This document shows positions 15,373 through 34,682 of a stretch of DNA of 64,000 nt, piece after piece. The stretch is from NCBI GenBank assembly GCA_016928235.1, contig JAFGLD010000096.1:3006-67005 (forward strand), given 5' to 3'. Both the position numbers and the translations under genes were made by a program. Source of the stretch: Anaerolineae bacterium. GTDB lineage: Bacteria > Chloroflexota > Anaerolineae > Aggregatilineales > UBA3940. The number at the start of each line of letters is the position of its first letter. The first letter of the stretch is position 1. The notes under the pieces were generated by a model. The model worked only from the letters and a program-made list of their open reading frames with translations. It was not told where the DNA came from and made no database searches.

Positions 15373-15845
15373 CAGGTTCTCCTGAAAGGATCGATTGCCA
15401 GGTTATGAGGTCACTGCTGTATATCCAGGGTGCGGCTTTTGGGCACAAGTGTCAACAGAATCTGGATACCTCTGAGTGGACTATTCTAGCATCGATGTAG
15501 CTGGGAGTGTAGGCGGCGGGTGTCGGCTTCACGGGGACACGCCAAAATATGCATGAATCAAGGAGGATGAAAGGAGTACCCCGGGAGGATGCCCGGAGGA
15601 TGCTAAGACACACTGCCGGCAGATGACACACCACCTTGTGTCGATCCCGGTTGGGTGAGATCGACGCGAGATGGGCTTACTCGACGCGGAGCATCACCAG
15701 TTGTCTTCCCACGCTCTGTGTGAGGTAATCCGGTTGTGCGCAAAGTATGTTCGTGGCGGCCACGCCATTGCGGTCTACCGATAACACCGTGTCGGCAGAT
15801 TGTATGGGGCGTTATTTGACGAATGCTCGCCAGGACAGCATGTGC

Positions 15846-16868
15846 CTACTCTGCGCGCGGCTTACGCCGGTAGAGCCTGGTGACAACGGAGAAACGGTTG
15901 GGGATAATGGGGTCGTTAATACCTATTGGCAGCCCACCAAGTGGACTGGGCATAGGGATGGGATGGTAGACATAGTCGCGGATGCCACTATCCCAGCGCG
16001 ACAGCAAGACACTGAGCACCAGAACAAACACACCCACCCACTGGACGATCTCCATCCGTTCGCCCAGCCAGGTAAAAGCGACCAATAGCGTTACTCCCAT
16101 CTCTGCGACATTCAACAAAATCGTCTGAAGGCTGCCCAGATTTCTGACTCCCATAAACAGTGTCACTCGCGATAGCGCCGTAACAGCTGTGATACCCAGA
16201 ATATAGTACCAGCCTATCGAAGCAGTAGGCCCCCACTGCAAAACAAAGAAATTGCCATAAACCAGACGGGCAACAAGCACCGTTGCTCCCATCCAGGTCA
16301 ACGCATAAAGTGACATGGTGGGGGCGGGCATTTCATACATAACACGCTGGCTAATAACGATATGCAAAGCATAAGAAAAAGCAGATCCGACCATCAAGCC
16401 AACGCCTATCCAATGTATCGCTGACTGGTGGTAACCACCGGTCAGCAGATAGACAGCGACGAGTGCCAACAAAGCGCGGACGATGCTGAGCCCGGATATG
16501 CGTTGTCCATACATACGCACCAACAACATGGCGAAGATCACATACAACATGTTGAGGAGCTGTACCAGCGAGGCGTTATCCAGCAAGAGCAAGCCGTTGT
16601 AGTAAAGAAGCGAGCCTAATCCGTTAATCCCCCCAACAGCTAACGTTCCTAAGAGCCCTGCCGGGAAAATATAGATGTACTTCCGGAAGAACAACCCGTA
16701 CACTACCCACAATATCAGCGCGGCCAGACAAGTTCGTAACGTAACCAGCGTAAACGGATCGATGCCTGTGTGGAGGGCCAGTTTGCCAAAGATCGGCGCA
16801 AAACCCATGACAAGAGGCGTCATGAAGGCTGCAATTGCACCATCAATCCGATGCCTGGATTGGCTCAC
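15846..16868 (-). CDS. DMT-superfamily (EamA-like) transporter
   Basis: About 10 predicted TM helices in two EamA-like halves, followed by a ~50-aa hydrophilic tail. Confidence 0.7.
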   Translation of the reverse strand: MSQSRHRIDGAIAAFMTPLVMGFAPIFGKLALHTGIDPFTLVTLRTCLAALILWVVYGLFFRKYIYIFPAGLLGTLAVGGINGLGSLLYYNGLLLLDNASLVQLLNMLYVIFAMLLVRMYGQRISGLSIVRALLALVAVYLLTGGYHQSAIHWIGVGLMVGSAFSYALHIVISQRVMYEMPAPTMSLYALTWMGATVLVARLVYGNFFVLQWGPTASIGWYYILGITAVTALSRVTLFMGVRNLGSLQTILLNVAEMGVTLLVAFTWLGERMEIVQWVGVFVLVLSVLLSRWDSGIRDYVYHPIPMPSPLGGLPIGINDPIIPNRFSVVTRLYRRKPRAE

Positions 16869-16919
16869 AGAGATATACCCTTATCTGAGATGTAAAAAAC
16901 GATTACCAGTCCACATGGT

Positions 16920-18581
16920 CTATCCCAATGTCTTGTCGATCAATTCCTGTAATACACCATCTTCGATCAATGAGCCTTTTTGTAATAAGCCCTGCACCTG
17001 ACCGGCCAGCCGGGCACGTTCATCGGCTGTCAGGTCCTTGGCCGTCACAATCACAACCGGCACGTCACGCAGCGACTCATCTGCTTTGAGACGATCCAGG
17101 ACGCCAAAGCCATCCATACCGGGCATCATCAGATCAAGCACAATAATATCGGGCCGGACACTCTGCACCATCTCGATACCTGCTTCGCCATCCGGAGCCA
17201 GATAGACATCCTGGACGCCATGCGCGCGCAAAATGCGCGCCATGAGCTTCGATGCGCCTGGGTCATCCTCAATAACCACCACCCGTCCCACGCGCCGATC
17301 GACCGTTTCTAACGCAGTCAGAAGTCCCTCGTGGGGAATAGCAGGCTGTGTCACAGACGCCACGTCCAGATCGCGAATCAGCTCATCACCCAGGATGTGC
17401 TTCTCGACAGGGAATGTATGGCCAGAACAATTCAACACGACCACTTCATCGGGGTCGATCATCTTCTGACGCACCATCTTAAATAAGCCGGCAAAAGCCA
17501 ATGCGGTAGCTGGTTCTACCGAGAGACCTTCAAGTTGAGCAACAGTTTTGAGCGCCTGGAAGGCTTCATCATCGTGAACCGACTCAAAGATACCCCCATG
17601 CTCCAACACTTCGTGACGCAAAACGCTATAGGCGATACCGGGAACATCGGTGGCTACAGTGGCAATACGTGTACTGGGCTTCAGAAAAGGAGGCGCTTCT
17701 TCCTGCCCGGCTTTGAAAGCCCGTACCATGGGGTCACAACCGGACGATTGGATATTAGCCAGCTTAGGAAACCCTTGAGCCAGGCCATATTGCTCCATCT
17801 CACGGAAGCCCTTCATCAGACCTATTGGGCCAAGACCACCGCTGACCGATTGAATATACCAGTCAGGCGTACGCCAAGGAATATCATTGGATGTAGGCCC
17901 ATATATCTCAGCCAGTTGCGCTGCCATCTCAAAGGCCATCGTCTTCATCGACTCTTTAGCGGCCAGGCTCTTGATGCCACGGTCAAGAAACAGCCCTTTG
18001 CTATCAGCAAAACGGGAGGCAACCTGCTTGGCCTGATCGTATGTGCCGGTGACCTTCACAAGCTCAGCGCCATAGATCGTCACCTCACGCATCTTCTCTA
18101 CCGGAACGCTGCTGATAGTAAAAACCCACATCTTGATCTTGGCTCGAGCTGCATAGGCTGCATAAGCAATCGCAACGTTACCGGTACTGGCAACAACAGC
18201 CTCTTTGACACCGATCTCGCGCATTGTAGAGATGGCTAAGGCAGCTTGCCGATCTTTGAAAGAGCCGGTTGGCCCCTGGCGCTCATCCTTGATGTAGAGA
18301 TGGCGCAGCCCTAACATAGCCGCCAAATTTTCAGAACGAAGGAGTGGTGTACCGCCCTCACCCATCGATAAGATGTTGGCATCATCGCGGATTGGCAAAA
18401 GCTCGCGGTAACGCCACATTGTGTCGGGGCGATTTCTCAACACAGCAGGCCACGGTAGAGGCGTATCAAGCTCGTACTCTGCTTCCAGATAGGTACCTCC
18501 ACATACAGGGCATGCTACCAATGGGTAGGTATATTCTTCGCTATGATGGCAGTTGGCACATCGTGTAATGATTCGTTTCAT
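16920..18581 (-). CDS. threonine-synthase-like PLP enzyme with an N-terminal zinc ribbon and a C-terminal receiver (REC) domain
   Basis: Zinc ribbon CANCHH...CPVCGG. PLP-lysine motif PTGSFKDRQA and a tryptophan-synthase-beta-like fold (ASTGNVAIAYAAYAA, SGGLGPIG). The C-terminal 120 aa (16920-17282) are a complete REC domain: VVVIEDD...IIVLDLMMPGMDG...VVIVTAK. Confidence 0.8.
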   Translation of the reverse strand: MKRIITRCANCHHSEEYTYPLVACPVCGGTYLEAEYELDTPLPWPAVLRNRPDTMWRYRELLPIRDDANILSMGEGGTPLLRSENLAAMLGLRHLYIKDERQGPTGSFKDRQAALAISTMREIGVKEAVVASTGNVAIAYAAYAARAKIKMWVFTISSVPVEKMREVTIYGAELVKVTGTYDQAKQVASRFADSKGLFLDRGIKSLAAKESMKTMAFEMAAQLAEIYGPTSNDIPWRTPDWYIQSVSGGLGPIGLMKGFREMEQYGLAQGFPKLANIQSSGCDPMVRAFKAGQEEAPPFLKPSTRIATVATDVPGIAYSVLRHEVLEHGGIFESVHDDEAFQALKTVAQLEGLSVEPATALAFAGLFKMVRQKMIDPDEVVVLNCSGHTFPVEKHILGDELIRDLDVASVTQPAIPHEGLLTALETVDRRVGRVVVIEDDPGASKLMARILRAHGVQDVYLAPDGEAGIEMVQSVRPDIIVLDLMMPGMDGFGVLDRLKADESLRDVPVVIVTAKDLTADERARLAGQVQGLLQKGSLIEDGVLQELIDKTLG

Positions 18582-18879
18582 TGGCTTGGACCTATCTAAG
18601 TTACATTCGATATGCAAGTTTTTGATACTGAGGGCAAATCGATGTGAATCCCGCAATATGTAAGCAAGTCATCCATTATCATTTCTTGCCGCATGCCCGA
18701 GATCGGGTCGGCGATCCCTCGTAGGGATGGGGCCGAGCCTATTCGTCGACAGCATCATGACCAGTCGTACAAGACATCGCACATCATTTTGTTACATCAA
18801 TACCAACCGGCTCATCAGGAAAGGGTGCAGGGCTTTATCCGCTCCGCACCCCTGATAACACCGTCATACAATCCCTATT

Positions 18880-21800
18880 TTATTTAGGAACTTTTTCCCA
18901 GGTAGTCGCCAATGCTGCCAGAAGCTGTTCCGGAGTAGCTTCGTTCTTGTTTAAATAAGCCGTTAACGATTCTCCCAATCGTTCCATAGCATCCCCGGGA
19001 AGCTCGCGGGATGAAACGATCAAGATAGGTAAATTTCGCGTCTGCTCCTGCGTCCGCAGTGAAGCCAGAAGACCATAGCCATCCATATCAGGCAGGTCCA
19101 GATCGACAATGAGTATGTCGGGCTTTTGTTCATGGAGCGTTTGTAGCCCTTCGTGTCCAAGCCCAACAACATTGGCATTATATCGCTGAGTGAGCAAGAG
19201 AGTCTCTTGCATGGTTCGAGCATATTGTTCATTACCATCGAGTATCAAGACAGATAATGCCTTCTCAACCATACCTCCCAATGCCCGGTTCAATGCCTCC
19301 AGCAGATCTTCCTCGATGATCGGTTTGACGAGATATTCCGTTACACCGACATTATTGGCTCGTTGGCGCGCATCTTCGATGCTACAGATGACGATGGGAA
19401 TATCGCGCGTGTCCTCTGCCTGTTTGAGTTGGTCGATGGCCACCCAGCCATCCACGTTCGGCATGTTGAGATCGAGCAGAATAGCGACCGGCTGAAACTC
19501 ACGCACCCTGTTGAGCAGATCGCCGGCGTTGCTTAAACCGACAATGGCATAACCCTGCTTTTCCAGATAGCGGCTGTATAAATCGAGAACGCCAGGCTCA
19601 TCGTCCACCGCCAACACCACTGGACGACCATCATCATTCTTTGGCAGGAACACAATATCAGAGCTCTCCTGCTGTTGTGCATGAAGCGGAACAGTAAAAC
19701 TGAATATTGAGCCGACACCTTTCTCGCTCTCGACCCACATCCGTCCGCCATGCATCTCGATGAACTGCCGGGAGATTGCCAAACCCAGACCCGTACCACC
19801 GACCTGTCGCGTTGTCGAGCCATCGACCTGACTGAAAGCCTGAAAGAGCTTGCCGATATCCTCTTGAGAAATACCGATGCCTGTATCGACAACATCGACC
19901 TGAACACGGGACGGCTCACCTGTCTCCGGGTCGTAATCCTTATGTGAAGCTCGAATAGTAATGCTACCTTCATGGGTAAATTTTGCGGCGTTAGCCACCA
20001 GGTTAAGCAAGACGCCCCGTACACGGACCGGGTCACCATACACATTGGGTAGATCGGCCTCTATCTCCTTGAAGATCTGGATCGGCTTATCACTGATCAA
20101 GCCCTGTCCGGTAGCCATCACGCCATCAACGATCTCAGGCAAGGAGATGTAATCCGGCTGAATCTCCATCTTGCCGGCTTCAATCTTGGAGATGTCGAGA
20201 ATATCGTTGATAAGCCCTAAAAGATGCTGGCCACTTTGATAGATGGTGTTCAGGTCCTGGGATTGCAGATCGCTGAGCGGGCCGTCGATCCCTTTCAACA
20301 TCACGCGGGAGAAACCAATGATCGAATTCAGCGGTGTACGGAGCTCATGGCTCATGTTGGCCAGGAACTGGCCCTTGAGCTTATCAAGCTCACGTAGCTG
20401 ATCGTTGGCTCGTGTGATCTGGTCGAGCAATCGGGCATTCTGGATAATGGCTGTCAGCGTGCTGGATGCCGCCTCCAAAAGACGCAGCTCCCGATCCCCA
20501 AAGACATTCACTTCCGAGCTGGCGAGCATCAGCACACCGATCGATTCGGCGCCTGCGCGGAGTGGAACGATCAGAGCTGCCTGAATGCGATCATCGAACT
20601 CACCATAGCGAGGATCTGTTTGTGTGTTAGGCGTGACCAGGGGAATACCATCCTCGGCTACCATACCAATGACAGTCTCTCCCAATTTGATCCGTGGATA
20701 GCGCACAGCAATGTCACGACCAAAGCCAACCGCAGCATGTGGCTCGAGTGTGTTGTCATCAGGACTAACCAGGTGGATGATGGCTGCCTCTGCCCCAGGT
20801 ATCTCGGTGAGGAGGATATTGGTTACGTTGGAGAGAGCTTCATCCAGTTCAGTCGTTGCGACAGCGGCTCTGGTGATATTGAACAGGAAACCAAGCTCAG
20901 ATGCGCGCCGCTGCGCTTCATCGAGCAGTTCAGCGTTACGGATCTTAACAGAGATATAGGCGGCCAGTGTGGTCAGTTGCCGGACATGTGTCTCGTTATA
21001 AGCGAATTCTCTATCCGGATCCTGGATGCTGATAACACCGATGATCTCATCACCTAGCAGGAGTGGAACAGCCAACAAGCTCTTAGGTATTGTTCCACTG
21101 ATTTGCGCGTCCAGTTTTTGAGCATTTTCTTGGACATTCTCATTAATCAGGAGAACCTCTCTGGTCTTCAGAACATAATTGGTCAGACCTTGTCCAATCG
21201 GGATAGCACCAATGGGAGGTATACGCTGACCGTTCTCCATGAAGATGGGAAGCTGGATCATGTCTTTTTCGGCAGACACAGCCAGGAAACCGTGCTGCGC
21301 GCCAAAAGTATGCTGCAATTGCGTAGCAACAACATCGTAGAGATCGCTTAAAGTCTCAGCGCGGGAAACGGCCTGAGAGATCAAGTTGACAGTGGTTAGC
21401 TCTGCCACACGATCCTGAATTTCCCGGAAGAGTTGGGCGTTTTCAAGCGTCACAGAAATCTGGTCAGCCAGCGACTGCAGGATAACCTGAGCCTCGGTAT
21501 CGAAAGCCTTGACTTGTGTACTCTGCACATCCAAAGCGCCAATAATCCGGTCACCCGTTCTGAGCGGTACGGCCATCTCGGCCCGCGTATTAGGTAATAG
21601 CTCATTGCGCTGGTGAATGGGATCTGTGTCGGTATCATGGATGATCACAGGTTCTCCTTGAGCCGTAACCTGCCCAATTACCGATTGCGACCCGACAGCC
21701 AATCTATGTTCACGCTGCAACAACTCCTGACCGATATCACCGGTGCTGGCATGCAGCATCGCCCATTCATTTGTATCATCGATCAAGAAAATCTGAGCAT

Positions 21801-24486
21801 GGTAATACCCAAACACTTCACTGATCTTATCCACCGTGAGAGGCAACAAGATATCCGGGTTGAGGATCGATGATGCAGCATGAGAGACTTCGTTGACCGC
21901 TTGCAAGCGACGGACACGCACCTGCGATTCGGAGAAGAGACGTAATCCTTCCAAAGCCGTAGCTGCCTGGTCGGCGATAGCTTCAAAAAAGCGCTGATCA
22001 GACTCCGCAAAGACATTAGTGTTATGCTGGCTATGTAGTAGCAACCAACCAAGAATACGCCCACCGGTAATCACAGGAAACTGGGCCATCGACTTAACAT
22101 TAAACCGCCTCAGAGTATCTCTGACATGATCTTCAAGAATGGCTGTTTCTGTGTTGTTGACAACCAGGCCGCTGCCTATCTCGTCCAGATCATATTCCAG
22201 CAATAATGGAAACTGCTCTACAAGCATACGCTCAGGCAGCGCCATCACCTGATCATTGGGATCTCCGGACCAGCGACCCAACAATTGCAACCATCGTCCT
22301 CCCTCTGTCATGCCGGATTCGTCGACCAGAACCACCATGGCACGGTCGATCGTACTACCGCGCATGGCGCCCAGCAGGACATTCGTGAGATTAGGTATGG
22401 AGTCAGCTGCCGCAATCTGCTGGCTTGCTTCGTAGAGTCGGTTGGACTCCATCAGAGAGGCCTGTGTCTGTTCAAAAAGACGCGCATTTTCGATGGCAAG
22501 CGCGACACGATCCAGCACCTGTCCAACCAATAGTCTGTCATCCTCAGAGATAACCTGGCCTGGTTGCAATCGTGTAGCCAATTCGCCGATAACCTCGCCA
22601 CGTAGCGCAATCGGCATATTCACGCGCTGTCCCCTGCCGCCATCTTCGTCATCAACCGGTGACAGTGGACGAACATCGCTCAAGTCATATTTGAAACCGA
22701 CTATTTCAGGCGATTGTTTGCGCCGTGAGACATAGGAGTCCCAGCTCTCGCGGGTAAGCGCCTGAGTCAGTTGGAGTGATGCGGCAAGCAAACTTTCTTT
22801 CTCTTGGAACAGATGAACATTACGAAACGCTGACGCAAGCTGATCTGCAATTGTCTTAAACGCCACAATCGTCTCGTCGTCAAAAGAATCAGGATGGACC
22901 GATTGTATATCCAATGCCCCGATAATCTCATCTCCTACACGCAGAGGAACAGCCAGCTCAGCACGTGTATCCGGTAACAGATCGTTGCGTCGATGGATAG
23001 GGCTATCCTCTGTATCAAGAACAAGAATGGGATCTCCATGCATCGTTGCCTGGCCAATAACTGACTGAGAGCCCACCTGAAGCTTATGGCCACGAGAAAG
23101 CAGCTCCCGGCCAACCGCGCCTGTACTCGCTCGCAGAACAGCATATTGATGCAGGTCATCTGTCATAAAAATCTGGACATGATAGTAATCCAGACGGTCA
23201 CGAATGGTATTAATGGTTGCAGTGAGCAGGCGGTCTAGATCAGTCTCGGTCGCCAGAACACGACTGATCTGGGATGTGATCTCAAGCTGTTGGTTGCGCT
23301 CAGTAATGGTTTTCTGGTGTTTTTCAAGCATTGAACGGGTGCGGCCAAGCATACGATTGAACGCATCTGCCAGCCGACTAAACTCAAGCGCATCGGTCAG
23401 GGGAGCCTCGATATCCATCTCGCCCCCGGCTGCCTGCATGGCAACTGCATATAGACGTTCGACAGGAGAAATAATGCGCCGCGCAAAGAAAACGGCCAAA
23501 ATGATCGCCAACAGGGCGATTATGGCGCCCAAAATTAACTGAGATCCCAGAATACTCTCTACTTCGCCGAGAACCGTTCCAGTATTTGTCGCAACGATGA
23601 GCGACATGTGCAGTGGCGCAATCCAACGATAAACGCCATAGACATGCTGCCCCCGATAGTCGACCCATTCACCTGAACCATCTTGTCCTGACAGCGCCGT
23701 GGCAACGATCTCTTCTTTGGCGAGATCGCCTGCAGCTTGCGGTGGCGGCATCACATAACGTCTTCCCTCCTCTACCAGATAATAATAGCTGGTCTCCGTC
23801 TGAGGAAGATCAAGCAAAATGACCAGAAGGTTTGAGAGCGTGACACGCCCACATAAGACACCAGTGGGAGAAGATGAGCCCTCCGGCTGCACAGCCACAG
23901 CAAAGTATAGACTTGGAACATCCTTCTCATAAGGATCTGCGATTGGCCCAACTGTTACCACTGTATCCGGATTCTGCAAGGCCGCTTGCAACCAAGGCTC
24001 TCCACTAAGATCCGGGTTGGCGAGGTTAAAAACAGGATCGTTGCCACCCAACAGCACTCCGTCAAGATCGACAAGAAACACACGGTCGTAAAGCCCTTGC
24101 ACGCTGGCAAGATAAGGGGTAGCAAGCGCGCTAATTCGTTCTGTAAAGGCTCGTTGCACCTCGGCCTTAGTGGTCGGATCTGCGTCTGGAGGCAAAGTAG
24201 TCAGCTGCTCGATCATAGGAGAAAGAGAAGGGTTGTCTCGGATTTTCAACAACTCAGTTTGACGTTCGGATGCCCATTTTTCTAGTACCGCCGTCTGGAT
24301 ATCCGCCATAGTGTCTAACTGGGTTATAGCCTTTGCTCGCTCGCGAGTCAGGTGGGTTATATTGCTAATTGCAATAAGCCCGGCTATCGGCAGCAAGATC
24401 AGAACAAGAAACACGATCAACAATTGTGTTCTTAAACGTCCCTGTCGTGGTATGAATCGGTTCTGCAATCGTCTTGTGCTACTCAT
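18880..24486 (-). CDS. multi-GAF hybrid sensor histidine kinase (TM - extracytoplasmic domain - TM - HAMP - about 7 GAF - HisKA - HATPase_c - REC - REC)
   Basis: 1868 aa. H-box FLANMSHELRTPLNSI (about 20341-20385). G-boxes DTGIGI / GGTGLGLAISR. REC1 about 19276-19623 (LAVDDE...LLDLNMPNVDG). REC2 about 18976-19257 (ILIVDLDLPDMDG). Repeated GAF cores include YYH(V/A)QIF...VGSQSVIGQ...LLP(D/N)TRAE(L/M)AVPL...IIGALD(I/V)QS. The start overlaps the upstream stop (ATGAGTAG). Confidence 0.9.
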   Translation of the reverse strand: MSSTRRLQNRFIPRQGRLRTQLLIVFLVLILLPIAGLIAISNITHLTRERAKAITQLDTMADIQTAVLEKWASERQTELLKIRDNPSLSPMIEQLTTLPPDADPTTKAEVQRAFTERISALATPYLASVQGLYDRVFLVDLDGVLLGGNDPVFNLANPDLSGEPWLQAALQNPDTVVTVGPIADPYEKDVPSLYFAVAVQPEGSSSPTGVLCGRVTLSNLLVILLDLPQTETSYYYLVEEGRRYVMPPPQAAGDLAKEEIVATALSGQDGSGEWVDYRGQHVYGVYRWIAPLHMSLIVATNTGTVLGEVESILGSQLILGAIIALLAIILAVFFARRIISPVERLYAVAMQAAGGEMDIEAPLTDALEFSRLADAFNRMLGRTRSMLEKHQKTITERNQQLEITSQISRVLATETDLDRLLTATINTIRDRLDYYHVQIFMTDDLHQYAVLRASTGAVGRELLSRGHKLQVGSQSVIGQATMHGDPILVLDTEDSPIHRRNDLLPDTRAELAVPLRVGDEIIGALDIQSVHPDSFDDETIVAFKTIADQLASAFRNVHLFQEKESLLAASLQLTQALTRESWDSYVSRRKQSPEIVGFKYDLSDVRPLSPVDDEDGGRGQRVNMPIALRGEVIGELATRLQPGQVISEDDRLLVGQVLDRVALAIENARLFEQTQASLMESNRLYEASQQIAAADSIPNLTNVLLGAMRGSTIDRAMVVLVDESGMTEGGRWLQLLGRWSGDPNDQVMALPERMLVEQFPLLLEYDLDEIGSGLVVNNTETAILEDHVRDTLRRFNVKSMAQFPVITGGRILGWLLLHSQHNTNVFAESDQRFFEAIADQAATALEGLRLFSESQVRVRRLQAVNEVSHAASSILNPDILLPLTVDKISEVFGYYHAQIFLIDDTNEWAMLHASTGDIGQELLQREHRLAVGSQSVIGQVTAQGEPVIIHDTDTDPIHQRNELLPNTRAEMAVPLRTGDRIIGALDVQSTQVKAFDTEAQVILQSLADQISVTLENAQLFREIQDRVAELTTVNLISQAVSRAETLSDLYDVVATQLQHTFGAQHGFLAVSAEKDMIQLPIFMENGQRIPPIGAIPIGQGLTNYVLKTREVLLINENVQENAQKLDAQISGTIPKSLLAVPLLLGDEIIGVISIQDPDREFAYNETHVRQLTTLAAYISVKIRNAELLDEAQRRASELGFLFNITRAAVATTELDEALSNVTNILLTEIPGAEAAIIHLVSPDDNTLEPHAAVGFGRDIAVRYPRIKLGETVIGMVAEDGIPLVTPNTQTDPRYGEFDDRIQAALIVPLRAGAESIGVLMLASSEVNVFGDRELRLLEAASSTLTAIIQNARLLDQITRANDQLRELDKLKGQFLANMSHELRTPLNSIIGFSRVMLKGIDGPLSDLQSQDLNTIYQSGQHLLGLINDILDISKIEAGKMEIQPDYISLPEIVDGVMATGQGLISDKPIQIFKEIEADLPNVYGDPVRVRGVLLNLVANAAKFTHEGSITIRASHKDYDPETGEPSRVQVDVVDTGIGISQEDIGKLFQAFSQVDGSTTRQVGGTGLGLAISRQFIEMHGGRMWVESEKGVGSIFSFTVPLHAQQQESSDIVFLPKNDDGRPVVLAVDDEPGVLDLYSRYLEKQGYAIVGLSNAGDLLNRVREFQPVAILLDLNMPNVDGWVAIDQLKQAEDTRDIPIVICSIEDARQRANNVGVTEYLVKPIIEEDLLEALNRALGGMVEKALSVLILDGNEQYARTMQETLLLTQRYNANVVGLGHEGLQTLHEQKPDILIVDLDLPDMDGYGLLASLRTQEQTRNLPILIVSSRELPGDAMERLGESLTAYLNKNEATPEQLLAALATTWEKVPK

Positions 24487-26680
24487 AGCTGTCGTCCAGT
24501 TTCTCTCGCCGCAACTGTACGCTGGTTTGAGGAGCGCGTAACACGCGGCCTAATTCCTTCACGGTTGTTTGTAAAATTTGATTCACATCAGTAGTGCCGA
24601 CGATCTTTGCTGTGATGGCATTGATAATCTGCTCATGCTCGGCCCGGCGAGCAGTCTGCTCCATCAAACGCAGGTTCTCGAGTGCCAGCCCCACACGGTC
24701 GATCACTGCCTCAACCAGGGCAACATCGTCACCCGTTAACTTTCTAACCGTCTCGCCACCAAAACCAAAAGCTCCAATAACTTCACCGCGCACCTTGATT
24801 GGCACAGCCAGACTAATACCGTCTTCACCATCATCAAGTGACACCAACTGCCCACTCCGAACAGCTTGTCCCATCGGAGACGGGGATCGATTGGTGAATG
24901 GCTCGATCCTCTCATCCTCAAACTCATAGGCAAGCGGTACATCCGCATCGTGCGACTGACGATAGGCGTTCCAGGCTTCAGCTGTGATGCGGCGTTCCAG
25001 CATCTCTATGTTATCCAGAGCGTCCTTTAGCTCTCCGTGTAAACGAGCATTCTCCAGTGCAATAGCAAGCTGGTCAGCCATAATTTGAAAAACAGCCACA
25101 TCGTCCTGGTCGAAAGCATTAGGCGCGACACTCTGCAAATCCAGTGCTCCAATGACCTCATCACCAATGCGCATGGGTAGAGCCATTTCAGAGCGCGTAT
25201 CCGGCAACAGCTCATTGCGCCTATGGACCGCACTACTATCTGTATCGGAGGCAATGACTGGCTCACCGCGCGATGTCACCTGTCCAATGACTGACTGTGA
25301 GCCAACTGATAGTGCATGTCTGCGAGCCAGCAGTTCACGCCCGGCAGTACCCGTGCTGGCTGTCAATACAGCATTTTCTTTTTTGTTGTCAACCAGGAAT
25401 ATCTGAGCATGATAAAAGCCAAAGCGATGCCGAATCAACTCTACAATTTCATTCATCAAATCGCGAGGGTCACGCAATGTCACCACAGCTCGCCCAATAT
25501 CACCTGTGATGCTCAGCTCTCTCGTGCGCTCTGCTACCCGCTGTTCCAATCCGGTGATCAACCCATCAAGTTGGGTTACCAGCACATTGAAACTGTCGCC
25601 CAATTGACTAAACTCATCCTTGCCTTCAACACTTATCCGTGTCTGTAGATTGCCTGCCGAGATACGCCTGGACGCGTCGAGTATCCCCCATAGATTTCGA
25701 GAGATATCACGGCCAAACACCATGGGGATAAACCCACTCGCTACAATCCCCACAGCCATCACAATCATCAAGAAGATACGCTGACTATTGAGTGTAGCCA
25801 TCATGATATCAAGCGGAGAACCAACTCTATCTTCTACAACATTGTTGAGACGTGAAGTTTCGTTACGTAAGTCCGACAATGCGTTTTGAGCAGTATTGCC
25901 GATAACATCAATTTGCTCAACCTGGACAACGATGGATGACGCATTCTCTCGATACACCTGCAATAACTCGGCTTCATTACGTCTTCGATCCTCTGGGATT
26001 TGAGATTCGTAAATCTCCTGATATTTGACAATGGCTTGCTGGAAGACTATATAATCTTCCGACGCTTCTGATTGAATCACCACAGTCTCTAATGTACGCA
26101 AGGTATCTGCCTGACTGTTTAGAGATGCATCGTTTAATCTGGCCGTTGCAGTTCGTAATTGTTCCCCGGACTGCCGGAAACGGGTAATTGTACCGGAATC
26201 TGATGATGACAACTGTTGAACCAAGGCAATAATATTCAGGAAACTGACCCTTGAGGTGTTAGCCTTAGATTTAATGACATCTACTTGTGCCTGGAGCGCC
26301 CCGTGAGTTGCGTTGTCCGGAAGCCTTGCGCTGAGTTCCAGGAGTTGCTCTGTGTGTCCATTGAGGCTTTCGCTGATGTCAATATAGTTCGGAGGCAACG
26401 ATAGGATCAGCGGATCGAGGCCCGGCTGTCGATATTCATTGAGCAGCCTGTTCTGTAGACTCTGAAGACTCTCGACCTCTAACTGAATGTCTTGCGCCAG
26501 CGAACGCATCTCAATAGTCAACGCCATCGTGTTGTCCATTTGACGCCGGACAGCATTCAAAGCCAATAGACTTGACGACATCATCAAGGCAGTGAGTATC
26601 ATGAGCGAGACAGAAAGCAAAGCTGACTTTACTTGAATGGACAAGTTACGCCAGACAAAGAATTTATAGAAATGCTGCAC
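24479..26680 (-). CDS. output-less sensor: TM - ~270-aa helical extracytoplasmic domain - TM - HAMP - GAF - GAF - truncated GAF stub
   Basis: 733 aa with a GTG start after GGGAGG. GAF core FGFYHAQIFLVDN...VGSQSVIGQVT...HRRNELLPDTRSEMALPM...VIGALDLQS. I saw no kinase, cyclase or HTH motif. Confidence 0.85.
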   Translation of the reverse strand: MQHFYKFFVWRNLSIQVKSALLSVSLMILTALMMSSSLLALNAVRRQMDNTMALTIEMRSLAQDIQLEVESLQSLQNRLLNEYRQPGLDPLILSLPPNYIDISESLNGHTEQLLELSARLPDNATHGALQAQVDVIKSKANTSRVSFLNIIALVQQLSSSDSGTITRFRQSGEQLRTATARLNDASLNSQADTLRTLETVVIQSEASEDYIVFQQAIVKYQEIYESQIPEDRRRNEAELLQVYRENASSIVVQVEQIDVIGNTAQNALSDLRNETSRLNNVVEDRVGSPLDIMMATLNSQRIFLMIVMAVGIVASGFIPMVFGRDISRNLWGILDASRRISAGNLQTRISVEGKDEFSQLGDSFNVLVTQLDGLITGLEQRVAERTRELSITGDIGRAVVTLRDPRDLMNEIVELIRHRFGFYHAQIFLVDNKKENAVLTASTGTAGRELLARRHALSVGSQSVIGQVTSRGEPVIASDTDSSAVHRRNELLPDTRSEMALPMRIGDEVIGALDLQSVAPNAFDQDDVAVFQIMADQLAIALENARLHGELKDALDNIEMLERRITAEAWNAYRQSHDADVPLAYEFEDERIEPFTNRSPSPMGQAVRSGQLVSLDDGEDGISLAVPIKVRGEVIGAFGFGGETVRKLTGDDVALVEAVIDRVGLALENLRLMEQTARRAEHEQIINAITAKIVGTTDVNQILQTTVKELGRVLRAPQTSVQLRREKLDDSYE

Positions 26681-26825
26681 TACGCAACCTCCCAGTATAC
26701 CTAACGAGACATCTCACTCATATTTCACGAGGACAAAGGCCTGATGACAATTCCTTAGGTTCTGTTGACATTCGTGCTCAAAATCCGCGCCCTGGATATA
26801 CAGAAATGTCAACAAAACCTAGAAA

Positions 26826-28607
26826 CTAAACTTCCGGAAGTCCTCCTGCTGTAGCAGCAGGCATTGGGCCAGTAGTATCTGGAATATCTACATTGAGTGC
26901 TTCTACTTCCTTGGGGCTAATCTGTACAATACCTCGTGAGGCGCCAAGAACAGAACTCAACTCTGTCAATGCAGATTGTAGGATCTCATCGATACTCTCT
27001 GCCTCTTGCACATCCTGAGCGATCCGGTTGACAACGTGCTCGCGCTCAGCAGCCAGGGTTGCCTGTTCGTAAAGACGCGCGTTTTCTACAGCCAGCCCCA
27101 GACGGTCAACCATCGTCTCAACCATCTCGATCTCCATGTCTGTCCAGGGGCGGCTACCTTCACGCTCTATCTCTAAAACGCCGACGACTTCGCCGCGAAT
27201 GCGTAACGGTATAGCAGCAATATGCGCCTGTTGATCCTGACGGATAACGACACTTCGCTCTCCACTAAAAGCCTGACGCATCGGAGCTGTCCAACTCGTA
27301 TCTGCTTGAACACGCTTACCCTGCAAAGTGTAGCCCATTGTACCTGGTGCGCGGTGCGAACGTAGATATTCCGTCCAGCCCTCGCGGGTCAACTGGCGAT
27401 TCAACACCTCGATCTGACGCAGGTTGGTCTGGGCATCTTCGAGAAGCGTCTGATGTTCTGCCGCACGTCTCTGCAATTCTGTTACCAGCCGGTTTCTTTC
27501 GATAAAGCCCGCCAACTGGTTAGCAATGACCTGGAGTGCATTAATATCTTCCGGGAAGAAGGAATTTTGCGCGACACTTTGGACATCCAGTGCTCCGATG
27601 ACATTTTCGCCGATCATGAGCGGTAAGGCTACCTCTGCGCGTGTATCCGGCAGTAGCTCGTTGGCATGGTATATGGAGCTGGTCTGGACATCATTGACAA
27701 TAACAGGTTGTCCATAATATGTTGCCTGCCCAACGATGGAGCGGGAGCCAACCATTAATGCATGTCCATTTGTCAAAAGCATCGCTCCAGCATGACCGGT
27801 ACTGGACTCAAGACGCGCCATACTGAGACGGGGGTTCTCACGACTACGCTGCTGATCAAGGAGAAAAACCTGAACATGGTAGAAACCGAAAACTTCACGA
27901 ACACGTTCGACAGCCATGCTCAACAAGCCTGAAACGCCGGTTGCTGTGGTAACAGCCTGATTGATCAGCGCGGCTGCTTCCAGCTGGCTGGCCTTACGCT
28001 GAGTGGTCTGCCCCCAGTCTAGCAACGCTCTGATCAAGAAAATGGTCACGCCATATAAAATTAGCAGAACCACTCCCGATATAACAGCTGAGCCAATTGA
28101 GGTCTCCGCATCAGCCCCGATCTGGATGTAAAGATAAGCGATTGCTGCTGTGCTTACCCCTGCAACCAGGGTAAAGAAGAAACCCCAGACTGCATCCAGC
28201 AGCATACAGGCGATCAAAATCGGAAGAGCAAAAGCCCCTATAGCCACATTGGAAAAGCCATAAGGAGAGCTGGCCCAGAATACCACCGCAATAAGAGCCA
28301 ATACAAATCCTATGCTGGCCCATCGTAGCGCGCCCGTATTCACCAACCAATACAAGCCTGCACACACCAAACCTAAAATGAAACCGATTGTAGCCGTCCG
28401 TTCGGGCGCGCCGGGCACAAACCACGTTGTAACAGCGCCCAACAAACTCAAAATACCAATAACGATGCATAGCCCTGCCAGCATCCTGGCCCGCTGGTAC
28501 ACCAGGGTATCTGCATAGGTATGATGAAAGTCAAACAACCTCTCAACAGGCCCTATGTGTGAACGAGGCGGTACAACAGGCTGTGGCAGTGGTGCTCTAC
28601 TAGACAT
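26826..28607 (-). CDS. output-less sensor: about 6 TM helices - GAF - GAF - truncated GAF stub
   Basis: 593 aa. GAF core FGFYHVQVFLLDQ...VGSRSIVGQAT...NELLPDTRAEVALPL...VIGALDVQS. The start overlaps the upstream stop (ATGTCTAG). Confidence 0.85.
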   Translation of the reverse strand: MSSRAPLPQPVVPPRSHIGPVERLFDFHHTYADTLVYQRARMLAGLCIVIGILSLLGAVTTWFVPGAPERTATIGFILGLVCAGLYWLVNTGALRWASIGFVLALIAVVFWASSPYGFSNVAIGAFALPILIACMLLDAVWGFFFTLVAGVSTAAIAYLYIQIGADAETSIGSAVISGVVLLILYGVTIFLIRALLDWGQTTQRKASQLEAAALINQAVTTATGVSGLLSMAVERVREVFGFYHVQVFLLDQQRSRENPRLSMARLESSTGHAGAMLLTNGHALMVGSRSIVGQATYYGQPVIVNDVQTSSIYHANELLPDTRAEVALPLMIGENVIGALDVQSVAQNSFFPEDINALQVIANQLAGFIERNRLVTELQRRAAEHQTLLEDAQTNLRQIEVLNRQLTREGWTEYLRSHRAPGTMGYTLQGKRVQADTSWTAPMRQAFSGERSVVIRQDQQAHIAAIPLRIRGEVVGVLEIEREGSRPWTDMEIEMVETMVDRLGLAVENARLYEQATLAAEREHVVNRIAQDVQEAESIDEILQSALTELSSVLGASRGIVQISPKEVEALNVDIPDTTGPMPAATAGGLPEV

Positions 28608-30867
28608 TGGTTATTCCTCCATCGCCGCCTCTGCCCAGGGAACCCGGCACATCGGAAACATCCTCTGCGTCGGCCCCCCCATCTGCAAAACCGGACGATA
28701 TCTGGCGACCATCCCGGGCCGGGAGCCCACCGATCCGCAATGATACACGATCAGAGCCAAGGGCTGCGCTAAGCTCGTTTAGCGCACTACGCAGCACAGT
28801 GTCGACGCTACTAGCACGTTGTAACAGGTTAGCGGAAACTTCATTAACGCGTTGTTCACGCTCCACACGTTGGGTTGATTCTTCAACCAGGCGAATACCC
28901 TCAGCAATGATACCCATACGAGCCGCAATAGATTCCAAGAGCAGCACTTCATCCCGTGTCCAGATTTCACCTGACGGGCGTGTGACAGCTAATGTTCCTA
29001 CGGTTTCACCGCGTGAGACCAGTGGCGCGGCCAATACAGAGCGTCCATCAGCATCAGTGTACACATCAGCCTTGATATCACGACTCTGGCGAGCCTCCTC
29101 CAGCACTTGAGGCCAGTGTTCTTCAGGATCAAGAGTACGTCGCAGCGCCCCTCCCTCCCCCATAAACTCTTCCCAGGCCTGTCGTGTAAGGCGCCGGTTC
29201 AACGCCTCAATCTCCGCCAGATTGGCAGCACTTTGCTCAAATAGACGGGCATTCTGTATAGCTGCGCTTAGCTGATCTGTAATCAGCCGTAAAACATTCA
29301 TGTCTTCGCGGCTGAAATCCCGCATACGATTAGAAATCAAGTGGACAGAACCCGCTGCCTCGCCGCCTATCTGAATGGGGAGGGTCATTTCCGAGTATTT
29401 GGCATTTGGGCCAGGCTCACGAATTTCCTCTTTACCGGCGCTAATCAGCGCTTCATTCAGCAATATTGAACGTCCTACCAGGGTCGCATCATCTATCTCA
29501 ACACGAAAGCCCGTTTGTAACAAACGCTCACTCTCCTCGCCTGCTGCCGCCTGCAACCGAGCACGCTTTCCTGACGAATCAACAAGGAAGATACGAACAT
29601 CCTGGTAATGGAAGTACCTGCTGAGCGAGAGAACTACCTCCTCCAGCATCTTATCGATTTCAAGTGTTATCATGGTAGTGTGCGACACTTGAAGCGCCGC
29701 GCGCAGTTGCTCTATCCGGTTCAGTAATCCGGCTATTGCATCACTTAGTATCTGAGATAATCGGCCAATCTCATCAGGAGGGAACTGTGGGAAAGGTGTG
29801 CTCAATTCCCCTTGTCTTATTTCCTCAACAACATCCACCAAACGACCCAAGGGCAACATCAGGGAACGCGCAAAGAAAAACATGAGCACCGCAACCAGGA
29901 TCGCGCCAATGACAGTCATCCAACGCAGCACCTCTGCCACTCGTGTAACGCCAGACAAAGATGTGTCAGCAGATTGACGTATTGCGAAAATCCAGGGCAA
30001 GTTACTAAGAGTGGGATCGCCACTTTCAATGTCTGCCATACTGATATGACTATAAAGCCAGTTATCTTTGGAAAGAAAAGCTCCTGATGGTAAGTTCCCA
30101 GTCAACTCTACCGGAATATCGACGCCGTCCATTCCACTCTGGGCAGACACAACTGTGCCATTCTGCTCGATGATCAGCATCTGCGTCCGATCCGTTGTTA
30201 CTGGCGGTTGCACATTCCACACAGCATAGATGACACCTATGGCAACCCTCGATGCTTCTGAGCTGTAAATAGGGACAGCAATATGTACACCTGTTTTTTC
30301 CGTGAATGGGTCATCCACATGCCCGGCAACATATGTTGCTCCCCTTCCATTATTCCAGGCATAGGTGTACCAATCCCAAAGCATCGCCGGCATTTCACGG
30401 CTATCGAAACCTTCCGGAAGCCCGCCAATCCCCATCGATAAGACATGCCCACTACTGTCGAGCACAACAATAGCCTCAAATTCCTTGTGGTCTTCCATAA
30501 AGCCAGTGATCACCGGATCAAGCGTCGGAGAAGATACCAATACTGGTCCCGTCGCAGCCTCTGAGTCGACATCCTGCCGTCGCCCTACTACGCGCTCAAT
30601 GCGTGCATCGGCACCCAATTGCTCTAGAACAAGGATATCGTGCTGCAAGGCCTTTATGACATAAAGAGCCTGGCTGTGGTTGACATCTTGCAAATCACCC
30701 AGAGCCAGGTCGATCTGGGCATTGCGCAATGCCTGTTGGACCACGAAATTGATGATCAACCCACCGATTAGCAAACCAAGCGCCAAACCAAGCACGAGCT
30801 TGAATGCAATAGGATACCCTCGTGGGTGCAAACGACTTGCCAGTGTACTCTCTTTCATAGCCATCAT
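28600..30867 (-). CDS. output-less sensor: TM - ~280-aa extracytoplasmic (Cache-like) domain - TM - HAMP - divergent GAF - GAF - truncated GAF stub
   Basis: 755 aa. The HAMP-like segment follows the second TM (MTVIGAILVAVLMFFFA). GAF cores YQDVRIFLVDS and RGETVGTLAV. The start overlaps the upstream stop by 1 nt (TGATG). Confidence 0.8.
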   Translation of the reverse strand: MMAMKESTLASRLHPRGYPIAFKLVLGLALGLLIGGLIINFVVQQALRNAQIDLALGDLQDVNHSQALYVIKALQHDILVLEQLGADARIERVVGRRQDVDSEAATGPVLVSSPTLDPVITGFMEDHKEFEAIVVLDSSGHVLSMGIGGLPEGFDSREMPAMLWDWYTYAWNNGRGATYVAGHVDDPFTEKTGVHIAVPIYSSEASRVAIGVIYAVWNVQPPVTTDRTQMLIIEQNGTVVSAQSGMDGVDIPVELTGNLPSGAFLSKDNWLYSHISMADIESGDPTLSNLPWIFAIRQSADTSLSGVTRVAEVLRWMTVIGAILVAVLMFFFARSLMLPLGRLVDVVEEIRQGELSTPFPQFPPDEIGRLSQILSDAIAGLLNRIEQLRAALQVSHTTMITLEIDKMLEEVVLSLSRYFHYQDVRIFLVDSSGKRARLQAAAGEESERLLQTGFRVEIDDATLVGRSILLNEALISAGKEEIREPGPNAKYSEMTLPIQIGGEAAGSVHLISNRMRDFSREDMNVLRLITDQLSAAIQNARLFEQSAANLAEIEALNRRLTRQAWEEFMGEGGALRRTLDPEEHWPQVLEEARQSRDIKADVYTDADGRSVLAAPLVSRGETVGTLAVTRPSGEIWTRDEVLLLESIAARMGIIAEGIRLVEESTQRVEREQRVNEVSANLLQRASSVDTVLRSALNELSAALGSDRVSLRIGGLPARDGRQISSGFADGGADAEDVSDVPGSLGRGGDGGITNV

Positions 30868-32726: not shown

Positions 32727-32989
32727 TCAAGAGCCCGCAAAAAAATTCTTATTATGCCACCGAGACGAGCCTGCATTCAACGATAATCTTTACCCTGGTT
32801 CATGATGTTAATCCCCCTGTTAGGGCATGAACGGGCAGTGATGAGATTGTGTTGTTTGTATTTTGCTCAAAAAGCGCACTTTCTCTAACAAGCATACACC
32901 AGTTTTAATACCTGTTGAATCGCGGGCCTTTTGCCACCATTTCCACATAAGCAAACGTGCTGTGAACAGAGCCACGCCTTCTAAATGGG

Positions 32990-34648: not shown

Positions 34649-34682
34649 ATTGTCAATCCCTGGTGAATCTTGTTATGACATC

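What the first reader, a model, noticed from the sequence alone, without database searches (positions are those of the whole stretch)
16920..18581. Threonine-synthase-like PLP enzyme covalently fused to a receiver domain
Seen in the sequence: one ORF combines three parts.
- An N-terminal Cys4 ribbon (CANCHH...CPVCGG).
- A ThrC / tryptophan-synthase-beta-fold PLP domain with the lysine motif PTGSFKDRQA.
- A complete C-terminal REC (VVVIEDD, DLMMPGMDG, VTAK, 16920-17282) in which the phospho-acceptor Asp, Thr and Lys positions are intact.
It sits immediately downstream of the hybrid kinase on the same strand, with a gap of about 300 nt.
Established knowledge: REC domains usually control DNA-binding, c-di-GMP, methylesterase or kinase outputs. 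A fold-type II PLP amino-acid enzyme as the output is uncommon.
Inference: phosphorylation may gate an amino-acid beta/gamma-replacement or elimination reaction. This may be the metabolic output of the GAF array.
Basis: partly seen in the sequence, partly recalled or inferred. Interest (0 to 1): 0.65.

Follow-up and report, generated by a model that had tools for sequence, protein, structure and literature searches.

The report
Threonine-synthase-like enzyme fused to receiver domain
A real, strongly conserved gene in Anaerolineae (Chloroflexota) joins a threonine-synthase-family vitamin-B6 enzyme to a phosphorylatable receiver domain and almost always sits beside giant multi-GAF sensor kinases and a small-metabolite transporter, so an amino-acid enzyme seems to be the direct output of a two-component signalling pathway.

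Summary
Window 16920-18581(-) encodes one 553-aa protein with three parts:
- a Cys4 ribbon;
- a threonine-synthase-family PLP domain (Pfam PALP, E 3e-60, Schiff-base Lys109);
- a complete C-terminal receiver (E 2e-19).

It is not an artefact. The same single ORF occurs in more than 200 protein clusters and in 80 of 80 inspected species genomes, almost all of them Anaerolineae-type Chloroflexota. dN/dS is about 0.02 in both domains.

It belongs to a conserved cassette: multi-GAF hybrid kinase, then ThrC-REC, then a REC-kinase of about 420 aa (absent in this window), then an EamA transporter. A kinase is adjacent in 67 of 69 loci, and the genes often overlap.

The receiver keeps the acidic pair, Asp483, Thr513 and Lys535 in 70 of 70 sequences. 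The aromatic switch position is an invariant Leu.

The enzyme is closest to Zn-ribbon-class threonine synthases. It falls just below NCBIfam's ThrC cut-offs, while a sister sub-branch and nested unfused relatives pass them.

Best reading: a response regulator whose output is an active ThrC-family enzyme, most likely converting O-phosphohomoserine to threonine.

Three things remain untested: the reaction itself, the direction of control, and whether these genomes hold a second ThrC. I found no published description. I class it as a new variant of a known kind, of moderate to high interest.

The parts
16920..18581 (-). Whole ThrC-like/REC fusion gene (553 aa plus stop codon)
   Evidence: P0001 is a 100% identical NCBI MAG protein named 'pyridoxal-phosphate dependent enzyme [Anaerolineae bacterium]'.
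18501..18560 (-). N-terminal Cys4 zinc ribbon (C8, C11, C24, C27)
   Evidence: Present in 69 of 70 sequences and invariant in A1 and A3. Modelled as a beta ribbon with pLDDT 85-89.
17424..18368 (-). Fold-type II PLP domain of the threonine-synthase family (residues 72-386). The Schiff-base Lys109 codon is at 18255-18257.
   Evidence: Pfam PALP E 3.2e-60. Best NCBIfam model is PRK08197 threonine synthase, 260 bits against a cut-off of 303. PDB threonine synthases: phmmer E 1e-40, Foldseek TM 0.81-0.83.
17283..17423 (-). Inter-domain linker (residues 387-433). It has a conserved SGHTFPVEK start, a variable middle, and a conserved PxEGLLxALE helix just before the REC.
   Evidence: Invariant residues G387, H388, V392 and E393; P416, E418, G419, L421 and L424 invariant among the 70 sequences of A2 and at least 90% conserved in A3. 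pLDDT is about 30-40 for 389-418, and 418-426 is helical. dN/dS 0.003.
16923..17282 (-). Receiver (REC) domain, residues 434-553. The phospho-acceptor Asp483 codon is at 17133-17135.
   Evidence: Pfam Response_reg E 2e-19. E438, D439, D483, T513 and K535 are each 70 of 70, and L532 occupies the Y/F switch position in 70 of 70. The full beta1-alpha5 topology is modelled.
18582..18879 (-). 298-nt spacer between the kinase and the fusion gene, with a GC-rich hairpin just after the kinase stop codon
   Evidence: folding z-score -2.0. No Rfam family matches. Relatives have a median gap of 49 nt, and 7 of 57 overlap.
18880..24486 (-). Presumed cognate hybrid histidine kinase (1868 aa): dCache, HAMP, five GAF, HisKA, HATPase_c and two REC domains
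   Evidence: An equivalent gene lies upstream of the fusion in 54 of 75 loci.
15846..16868 (-). EamA-family (DMT) transporter, 52 nt downstream on the same strand
   Evidence: Pfam EamA. Only a weak match to TIGR00950, carboxylate/amino acid/amine transporter. An EamA gene lies within 2 kb downstream in 54 of 70 loci.
24479..36698 (-). Array of six GAF or HAMP-GAF proteins without a kinase core, upstream of the hybrid kinase on the same strand
   Evidence: The same kind of array is seen in L001, L003, L092 and L094.

Best explanation
The gene encodes a response regulator whose effector module is a catalytically competent, Zn-ribbon-class threonine-synthase-family PLP enzyme.

Proposed mechanism:
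1. The adjacent multi-GAF hybrid kinase phosphorylates Asp483 of the C-terminal receiver. In most relatives a second REC-HisKA-HATPase kinase may also do so.
2. The receiver's state is passed to the dimeric PLP domain, and this sets enzyme activity. The route would be the conserved PxEGLLxALE helix on a flexible tether, most plausibly by changing how two subunits pair.
3. The most likely reaction is the threonine-synthase one: O-phospho-L-homoserine to L-threonine plus phosphate.
4. The co-encoded EamA transporter moves the product or a related amino acid across the membrane.

Shown: the architecture, the conserved catalytic and phospho-acceptor residues, purifying selection on both halves, and the conserved kinase/transporter cassette.

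Inferred: phosphotransfer, the direction of control, the substrate, and the transporter's cargo.
For: Domains and active site:
- Domain hits.
- The closest sequences and folds are solved threonine synthases.
- K109, S132-T133-G134-N135, the SGGxGP PLP-phosphate loop and E356-P-A are invariant.

Receiver:
- E438, D439, D483, T513 and K535 are each present in 70 of 70 sequences.
- The canonical (beta-alpha)5 receiver is modelled.
- dN/dS is 0.018 for PALP, 0.019 for REC and 0.003 for the linker, against a 93%-identical orthologue.

Distribution:
- It is a single ORF in every one of the 120 listed clusters of the first search and in most of the second.
- It is a single ORF in 80 of 80 species-representative genomes, each from a different assembly.

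Cassette statistics:
- A kinase is adjacent in 67 of 69 loci.
- An upstream GAF kinase is present in 54 of 75.
- A downstream REC-kinase is present in 58 of 77.
- EamA is present in 54 of 70.
- Gaps of 10 nt or less occur in 20 of 57 and 20 of 59 gene pairs, including 4- or 8-nt overlaps.
- The linkage persists at 43% identity (L006).

Enzyme identity:
- Unfused proteins nested inside the fusion clade (B+U 98 of 100) pass both ThrC cut-offs and lie away from kinases. The enzyme half therefore works on its own.
- Type-B fusions pass the TIGR00260 thrC cut-off, and NCBI names them threonine synthase.
Against: - The window's own protein is below both ThrC cut-offs: 156.1 against 167.1, and 260.1 against 303.
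- The column that is Arg in solved ThrCs and in most cut-off-passing ones (T. thermophilus Arg160) is A, S, V or G in every fusion. Type A has K/R one residue later and type B has none. The phosphate-binding role of Arg160 is from my memory of Omi et al. 2003.
- No hom, thrB or other threonine gene lies in the window or in about 85 loci.
- The receiver is C-terminal.
- Its Y/F switch residue is an invariant Leu. Bruderlin et al. 2023 (PMC9981736) link loss of that aromatic residue to non-allosteric, phosphoryl-shuttling receivers.
- PDB receivers mostly align only as far as alpha4.
- AlphaFold2 gives no confident inter-domain packing: linker pLDDT about 30-40, pTM 0.70-0.72.
- The hybrid kinase has two receivers of its own, and no Hpt domain was found nearby.
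Confidence: 0.55

Rival explanations
1. A specialised, non-threonine chemistry. The enzyme would carry out a different beta/gamma-replacement or elimination, for example MetM-like homocysteine formation from O-phosphohomoserine, cysteate-synthase-like chemistry, or deamination. The cassette would then make and export a dedicated amino-acid product.
For: - The protein is below the ThrC cut-offs, and the Arg160 column is changed.
- Type A has a family-specific insert of 11-12 aa.
- The whole 'SGGxGP' clade is separate from solved ThrCs.
- More distant unfused clade members sit beside radical-SAM/SPASM + TauE + Fe-ADH genes, or epimerase + methyltransferase genes.
- An EamA exporter-type gene is conserved next to the fusion.
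- MetM is a ThrC homologue often misannotated as ThrC (GapMind preprint 10.1101/2024.10.14.618325).
- A divergent cyanobacterial ThrC lineage shows deaminase activity (PMC12172450).
Against: - A plausible ThiS/MoaD-like (MetO-type) gene lies within 4 kb in only 1 of 85 loci.
- There is no SAM or other riboswitch upstream.
- The cysteate-synthase model scores 114 against a cut-off of 325.
- The nearest unfused relatives and the type-B fusions pass ThrC cut-offs.
Confidence: 0.2
2. The PLP domain is a ligand sensor, not an output. It would bind an amino acid through PLP, as the aminotransferase-like domain of GabR/MocR regulators does. This binding would modulate how the attached receiver takes or gives phosphoryl groups between the two flanking kinases, making the protein a metabolite-gated phosphorelay node or phosphate sink.
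For: - The receiver is C-terminal.
- The Y/F switch is Leu in 70 of 70 sequences, as in shuttling receivers (PMC9981736).
- Most loci place the gene between two kinases, the second of which has its own N-terminal receiver.
- No REC-enzyme interface is predicted.
Against: - The full catalytic apparatus is invariant, not just the PLP-binding Lys.
- Nested unfused relatives exist as stand-alone enzymes away from any kinase.
- There is no Hpt domain to carry phosphoryl groups onward.
- A conserved transporter gene fits a metabolic role better.
Confidence: 0.15
3. The receiver is a non-signalling appendage, for instance a dimerisation or stability module, and the neighbouring kinases act on other regulators.
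For: - The beta5-alpha5 region is atypical and of low confidence.
- The window's cassette has other REC proteins nearby, at 36860-38911.
Against: - The acidic pair, Asp, Thr and Lys are all 70 of 70, which degenerate receivers usually lose.
- Translational coupling to kinases is seen in many genomes.
- dN/dS is 0.019.
Confidence: 0.05
4. The fusion is an assembly or frameshift artefact that joins two genes.
For: None. One relative (P0125) is itself frameshifted, which shows that such errors do occur.
Against: The same single reading frame occurs in hundreds of independent assemblies from NCBI, ENA, JGI and Logan, including contigs of 1.3-6.2 Mb.
Confidence: 0.01

Closest known systems
Bacterial class-I threonine synthases with solved structures (T. 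thermophilus 1UIM/1V7C, A. aeolicus 2ZSJ, M. tuberculosis 2D1F, B. subtilis 6CGQ)
   Same: - Fold-type II PLP fold, with TM 0.79-0.83 over the whole target.
- About 30% identity.
- PTGSFKDR lysine motif, S-T-G-N loop and E-P-A motif.
   Different: - They have no Zn ribbon and no receiver.
- Their GNAGN PLP-phosphate loop is SGGLGP here.
- Their Arg160 column is Ala here.
- This protein has an extra insert of 11-12 aa.
Zn-ribbon-class 'threonine synthase' (NCBIfam PRK08197), which appears to include the MetM / divergent cyanobacterial ThrC lineage
   Same: - PRK08197 is the best-scoring curated model and matches end to end, including the N-terminal ribbon.
- Nested unfused relatives pass its cut-off.
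   Different: - The window protein scores 260 against a cut-off of 303.
- A receiver is added.
- There is no MetO gene and no SAM riboswitch.
- That PRK08197 corresponds to the MetM lineage is my inference. No MetM sequence was available to compare.
Plant threonine synthase (Arabidopsis 1E5X/2C2B) and biosynthetic threonine deaminase IlvA
   Same: Both are enzymes of the same fold family that carry an extra regulatory module: a SAM-activated N-terminal domain in one, and C-terminal ACT-like domains in the other. This is established knowledge, and both appear among the fold hits.
   Different: Their regulation works by small-molecule binding, not by a phosphorylatable receiver.
Response regulators with enzymatic outputs (CheB methylesterase, PleD/WspR diguanylate cyclases, RpfG HD-GYP, RssB PP2C-like)
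   Same: They have a receiver with a complete phospho-acceptor pocket, they are encoded next to their kinases, and an enzyme is the effector.
   Different: - The receiver is C-terminal here.
- The output is a PLP amino-acid enzyme.
- The aromatic switch residue is Leu.
CheV (CheW-REC) and other proteins with a C-terminal receiver
   Same: The domain order is functional module first, receiver last.
   Different: The partner module there is a scaffold protein, not an enzyme.
ThrC-like + LeuA allosteric-domain fusions found here (P0201, P0250, P0254, P0260)
   Same: They are ThrC-family enzymes with a C-terminal regulatory domain.
   Different: The regulatory domain binds an amino acid instead of accepting a phosphoryl group, and they sit on a different branch of the tree.

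Membership tests
Threonine synthase (ThrC; TIGR00260 / PRK08197) | Fold-type II PLP fold with the Schiff-base lysine and PLP-binding loops | tested here: met
   K109 is present in 70 of 70 sequences.
Threonine synthase (ThrC; TIGR00260 / PRK08197) | Score at or above the curated equivalog cut-off | tested here: not met
   The window protein scores 156.1 against 167.1 (TIGR00260) and 260.1 against 303 (PRK08197). Type-B fusions pass TIGR00260 with 170-186, and the unfused P0127, P0317 and P0338 pass both models.
Threonine synthase (ThrC; TIGR00260 / PRK08197) | Arg that binds the substrate phosphate (T. thermophilus Arg160; role recalled from Omi et al. 2003, not checked with a tool) | tested here: not met
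   The aligned column is A, S, V or G in all fusions. K/R follows one residue later in type A only. The unfused relatives that pass the cut-offs also lack this Arg, so its weight is limited.
Threonine synthase (ThrC; TIGR00260 / PRK08197) | Catalyses O-phosphohomoserine to threonine and is the cell's threonine synthase | not testable with these tools
Three attempts to find a second ThrC in the same genomes failed.
Two-component response regulator | Receiver fold with acidic pair, phospho-acceptor Asp, Thr/Ser and Lys | tested here: met
   E438, D439, D483, T513 and K535 are each 70 of 70. The (beta-alpha)5 fold is modelled.
Two-component response regulator | Aromatic (Y/F) switch residue on beta5 for T-Y coupling | tested here: not met
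   L532 is present in 70 of 70 sequences. See PMC9981736.
Two-component response regulator | Encoded with a cognate histidine kinase | tested here: met
   A kinase is adjacent in 67 of 69 loci, and overlaps are common.
Two-component response regulator | Accepts a phosphoryl group, and this changes the output | not testable with these tools
   This needs biochemistry.
MetM (MetO-thiocarboxylate-dependent homocysteine synthase) | A partner sulfur-carrier gene (MetO, ThiS/MoaD-like, C-terminal Gly-Gly) nearby | tested here: not met
   Only 1 of 85 loci has a plausible candidate within 4 kb.
MetM (MetO-thiocarboxylate-dependent homocysteine synthase) | Upstream SAM riboswitch (reported for S. albulus metM in PMC12172450) | tested here: not met
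   No Rfam hit in 15500-19500.
MetM (MetO-thiocarboxylate-dependent homocysteine synthase) | Close sequence similarity to characterised MetM | not tested
   No MetM sequence or model was available in the tools.
Cysteate synthase (TIGR03844) | Score at or above the curated cut-off | tested here: not met
   113.9 against 324.9. Foldseek TM to 9K3C is 0.73, lower than to ThrCs.

The most novel reading that the evidence does not exclude
In a large clade of Chloroflexota, a step of threonine synthesis would be switched directly by two-component phosphorylation from GAF-array sensor kinases, possibly as the only threonine synthase. Alternatively, the four-gene cassette would be a signal-controlled factory and exporter for an amino-acid-type metabolite, for example a signal or shared nutrient between cells of these filamentous bacteria. 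Either case would be the first receiver-controlled PLP enzyme, and a new class of response-regulator output.
Probability: 0.3. Interest if true: 0.8.

Novelty: new variant of a known kind. Interest (0 to 1): 0.6.

Why it matters
Response regulators are known to control transcription, second-messenger turnover, chemotaxis enzymes and proteolysis adaptors. Direct phospho-control of a PLP-dependent amino-acid enzyme has not been described in any paper I could find.

If it holds, sensory input would be linked to amino-acid metabolism without transcription. It would also give a concrete, assayable output for the enigmatic multi-GAF kinase arrays of Anaerolineae, which are abundant in wastewater sludge and sediments but hard to culture. 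Finally, it would provide a natural, modular switch for a biosynthetic enzyme.

There is also a practical annotation point. Part of the family is labelled only 'pyridoxal-phosphate dependent enzyme' and part 'threonine synthase', with no mention of the receiver in either label. Metabolic reconstructions of these MAGs may therefore mis-score threonine biosynthesis.

Tried and rejected
1. **Second ThrC in the same genomes.** I looked up cluster names for 20 unfused relatives. I also ran a homologue search from the nearest canonical-clade hit, P0188, hoping to match contig-length fingerprints of fusion-bearing contigs. P0188 turned out to be a Thermoplasmata archaeal ThrC and nothing matched. The question stays open.
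2. **AFDB search for named organisms.** The library was not available.
3. **Galperin 2006 response-regulator census.** The paper is not held. Six full-text searches found no description of a ThrC/PALP-receiver fusion.
4. **Riboswitch or leader upstream.** No Rfam match; there is only a modestly stable fold.
5. **Promoter and terminator scan.** Nothing above background.
6. **AlphaFold2 with 70 and then 110 sequences.** Both domains are confident, but the tether (389-418) and the relative placement are undefined. No docking mechanism could be read out.
7. **Using loss of Arg160 to exclude ThrC function.** I weakened this argument after finding that nested unfused relatives which pass the ThrC cut-offs also lack the Arg.
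8. **My earlier statement that the fusions are strictly monophyletic (92 of 100).** I revised it. Once the unfused group is added, that group nests inside, and 'fusions only' is monophyletic in 0 of 100 replicates.
9. **MetM identity.** Rejected as the leading reading, because no MetO-like gene accompanies the fusion.
Full report
**1. What is there**

Window 16920-18581 on the minus strand is one open reading frame of 553 aa.
- Pfam finds a PLP-dependent enzyme domain (PALP, residues 72-386, E 3.2e-60) and a receiver domain (Response_reg, 434-536, E 2e-19).
- In front of the PLP domain lies a Cys4 ribbon (C8, C11, C24, C27).
- The ATG at 18581 is the likely start. Homologues of 553-557 aa begin a few residues before the first Cys.
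The one exception is the conserved receiver lysine, which is K535 in LLQKG and not the lysine of VTAK.
- The upstream same-strand gene (18880-24486) is an 1868-aa hybrid kinase with dCache, HAMP, five GAF, HisKA, HATPase and two REC domains, 298 nt away.
- An EamA-family transporter gene (15846-16868) follows 52 nt downstream on the same strand.

**2. Not an artefact, and not rare in its lineage**

- An identical protein is in NCBI as 'pyridoxal-phosphate dependent enzyme [Anaerolineae bacterium]'.
- All 120 listed clusters of the first search have PALP+REC at 57-93% identity.
- A second search, started from an unfused relative, listed about 100 further PALP+REC clusters. NCBI names many of them 'threonine synthase', and some lie on contigs of 1.7-3.7 Mb.
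- An exhaustive search of 50%-identity representatives found more distant fusions at 41-50% identity, including PALP-REC-REC proteins of 708-715 aa.
- All 80 best loci carry the single-ORF fusion, each from a different assembly. They come from Anaerolineales, Aggregatilineales, Promineifilaceae, Ardenticatenaceae, Caldilineaceae, Thermoflexia and related groups.
- Against a 93%-identical orthologue, dN/dS is 0.018 for the enzyme half, 0.019 for the receiver and 0.003 for the linker. dS is saturated, so these ratios are approximate.

**3. The conserved neighbourhood**

I built profiles from the window's own domains and annotated 84 non-redundant loci. The typical order, on one strand, is:
1. 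a multi-GAF hybrid kinase (median 1794 aa, up to 12 GAF domains);
2. the ThrC-REC fusion;
3. a REC-HisKA-HATPase kinase of about 420 aa;
4. an EamA transporter.

| Feature | Loci with the feature / loci with room to see it |
|---|---|
| Upstream kinase | 55 of 75 (54 with GAF domains) |
| Downstream REC-kinase | 58 of 77 |
| EamA within 2 kb | 54 of 70 |
| At least one adjacent kinase | 67 of 69 |
| Both kinases | 35 of 69 |

- Gaps are short, with medians of 49 and 24 nt. In 20 of 57 and 20 of 59 gene pairs the gap is 10 nt or less, and many pairs overlap by 4-8 nt.
- The window has the shorter version without the second kinase, as do L001, L003, L008, L010, L034, L065, L092 and L094.
- Even at 43% identity, the PALP-REC-REC gene overlaps a 2753-aa GAF/PAS kinase by 8 nt.
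- In the window the 298-nt spacer carries a hairpin after the kinase stop codon. It matches no known RNA family.
- No Hpt domain and no hom, thrB or other threonine gene lies in the window.

**4. The enzyme half**

- The best curated model is PRK08197 threonine synthase, matched end to end including the ribbon. The score of 260 is below its cut-off of 303. TIGR00260 thrC scores 156 against 167, and cysteate synthase only 114 against 325.
- Solved threonine synthases are the best sequence matches (E 1e-40) and the best fold matches (TM 0.81-0.83).
- I aligned against T. thermophilus ThrC and checked the numbering on K61 and S84-T88.
  - The lysine motif, the S-T-G-N loop and the E-P-A motif are invariant.
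  - The PLP-phosphate loop GNAGN is SGGLGP here.
  - The Arg160 column is A, S, V or G in every fusion. From memory of Omi et al. 2003, this Arg binds the substrate phosphate.

The family splits into two sub-branches:

| | Type A (the window's kind) | Type B |
|---|---|---|
| Insert | 11-12 aa | none |
| Motif at this site | AA[KR]ES | AAVES |
| TIGR00260 cut-off | not reached | passed (170-186) |

- In NJ trees the whole clade is separate from the solved ThrCs.
- A group of unfused 395-426-aa proteins nests inside the fusion clade as sister to type B, at 98 of 100 bootstraps. 'Fusions only' is monophyletic in 0 of 100 replicates.
- Those unfused proteins pass both ThrC cut-offs and are not next to kinases.
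- So the receiver was gained once near the base of the clade and later lost at least once, and the enzyme can function alone.
- More distant unfused relatives sit in varied, non-threonine contexts.

**5. The receiver half**

- E438, D439, D483, T513 and K535 are each present in 70 of 70 sequences. The beta5 position that is Tyr/Phe in classical regulators is Leu in 70 of 70.
- Bruderlin et al. (PMC9981736) list these five positions as the functional quintet. They relate loss of the aromatic residue to receivers that shuttle phosphoryl groups without allosteric change.
- PDB receivers mostly align only up to alpha4.
- With 110 sequences AlphaFold2 models the full beta1-alpha5 receiver. Residues 389-418 remain a low-confidence tether, and a short conserved helix (PxEGLLxALE, 418-426) leads into beta1. 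There is no confident placement of the receiver on the enzyme.

**6. Interpretation**

The best-supported reading (0.55) is a response regulator whose effector is an active ThrC-family enzyme. It would be phosphorylated by the flanking kinases, and it most probably makes threonine from O-phosphohomoserine. EamA would move the product or a related amino acid. The control step is inferred, and its direction is unknown.

Rivals:
- a different replacement or elimination chemistry with a dedicated exported product (0.2);
- the PLP domain as a metabolite sensor that gates a phosphorelay node (0.15);
- an inert receiver (0.05);
- an artefact (0.01).

MetM is a ThrC homologue that makes homocysteine with a MetO thiocarboxylate and is often misannotated as ThrC. 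It is a relevant comparator, but only 1 of 85 loci has a possible MetO-like gene, and there is no SAM riboswitch.

**7. What could not be settled**

I could not test whether these genomes hold a second, canonical ThrC. That single fact would separate 'phospho-controlled housekeeping threonine synthase' from 'specialised paralogue'.

**8. Novelty**

Six full-text searches found no paper describing this architecture. The proteins are in public databases under generic names. I rate it a new variant of a known kind: a response regulator with an enzymatic output, but with a new class of output domain and a conserved cassette. Interest is 0.6.

Noticed in passing
window 24479-36698 (-), 36860-38038 (-), 38132-38911 (-): Six consecutive GAF or HAMP-GAF proteins without a kinase core, followed by two receiver-containing proteins, all on the fusion's strand. 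The same GAF-only array precedes the kinase in L001, L003, L092 and L094. How kinase-less GAF proteins feed into the hybrid kinase is unexplained.
   Followed up: partly
L004 11662-12906 (+), and 58 of 77 loci: Most relatives carry a REC-HisKA-HATPase kinase of about 420 aa between the fusion and EamA, often overlapping the fusion's stop codon. The window's cassette lacks it.
   Followed up: partly
P0201, P0250, P0254, P0260: These are ThrC-family enzymes of about 615 aa fused at the C-terminus to the LeuA allosteric (LeuA_dimer) domain. They are another, apparently undescribed, fusion of this enzyme family to a regulatory domain.
   Followed up: no
P0121 and P0122; L006 8001-10148: A PALP-REC-REC variant (708-715 aa) at 43-45% identity. 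It overlaps a 2753-aa GAF/PAS kinase and is followed by a single-domain receiver. No EamA gene is present there.
   Followed up: partly
P0127, P0312, P0317, P0338; L091, L093: Unfused proteins nested inside the fusion clade, which points to secondary loss of the receiver. L091 has LptC/LptD neighbours and L093 has DUF2301/DUF561 neighbours, so these may come from other phyla and could indicate horizontal transfer.
   Followed up: partly
window 18582-18879 (-): An unusually long 298-nt spacer with a GC-rich hairpin directly after the kinase stop codon. Relatives have a median gap of 49 nt, and the 93%-identical relative L094 has 130 nt.
   Followed up: partly
L078 (JAPUDW010000137.1): A MAG labelled 'Bacteroidetes bacterium' carries a typical Anaerolineae-type fusion at 55% identity. 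The contig is probably mis-binned.
   Followed up: no
P0125: A 74%-identical copy whose C-terminal third is out of frame, reading as Arg/Gly/Pro-rich nonsense in place of the linker and receiver. It is either a sequencing frameshift or a pseudogene.
   Followed up: no
window 52473-56966 (+), 49289-52057 (-), 44640-47526 (-): Three further signalling or regulatory genes lie in the window: a 1497-aa MEDS-PAS-GAF histidine kinase, a MalT-like TPR/LuxR regulator, and a MoxR-AAA plus VWA/metallopeptidase-like pair.
   Followed up: no
L088 2091-4989: A more distant unfused clade member (P0135) sits in an apparent operon with a radical-SAM/SPASM enzyme, a TauE-family exporter and an Fe-alcohol dehydrogenase. 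This suggests a specialised-metabolite role for that branch.
   Followed up: no
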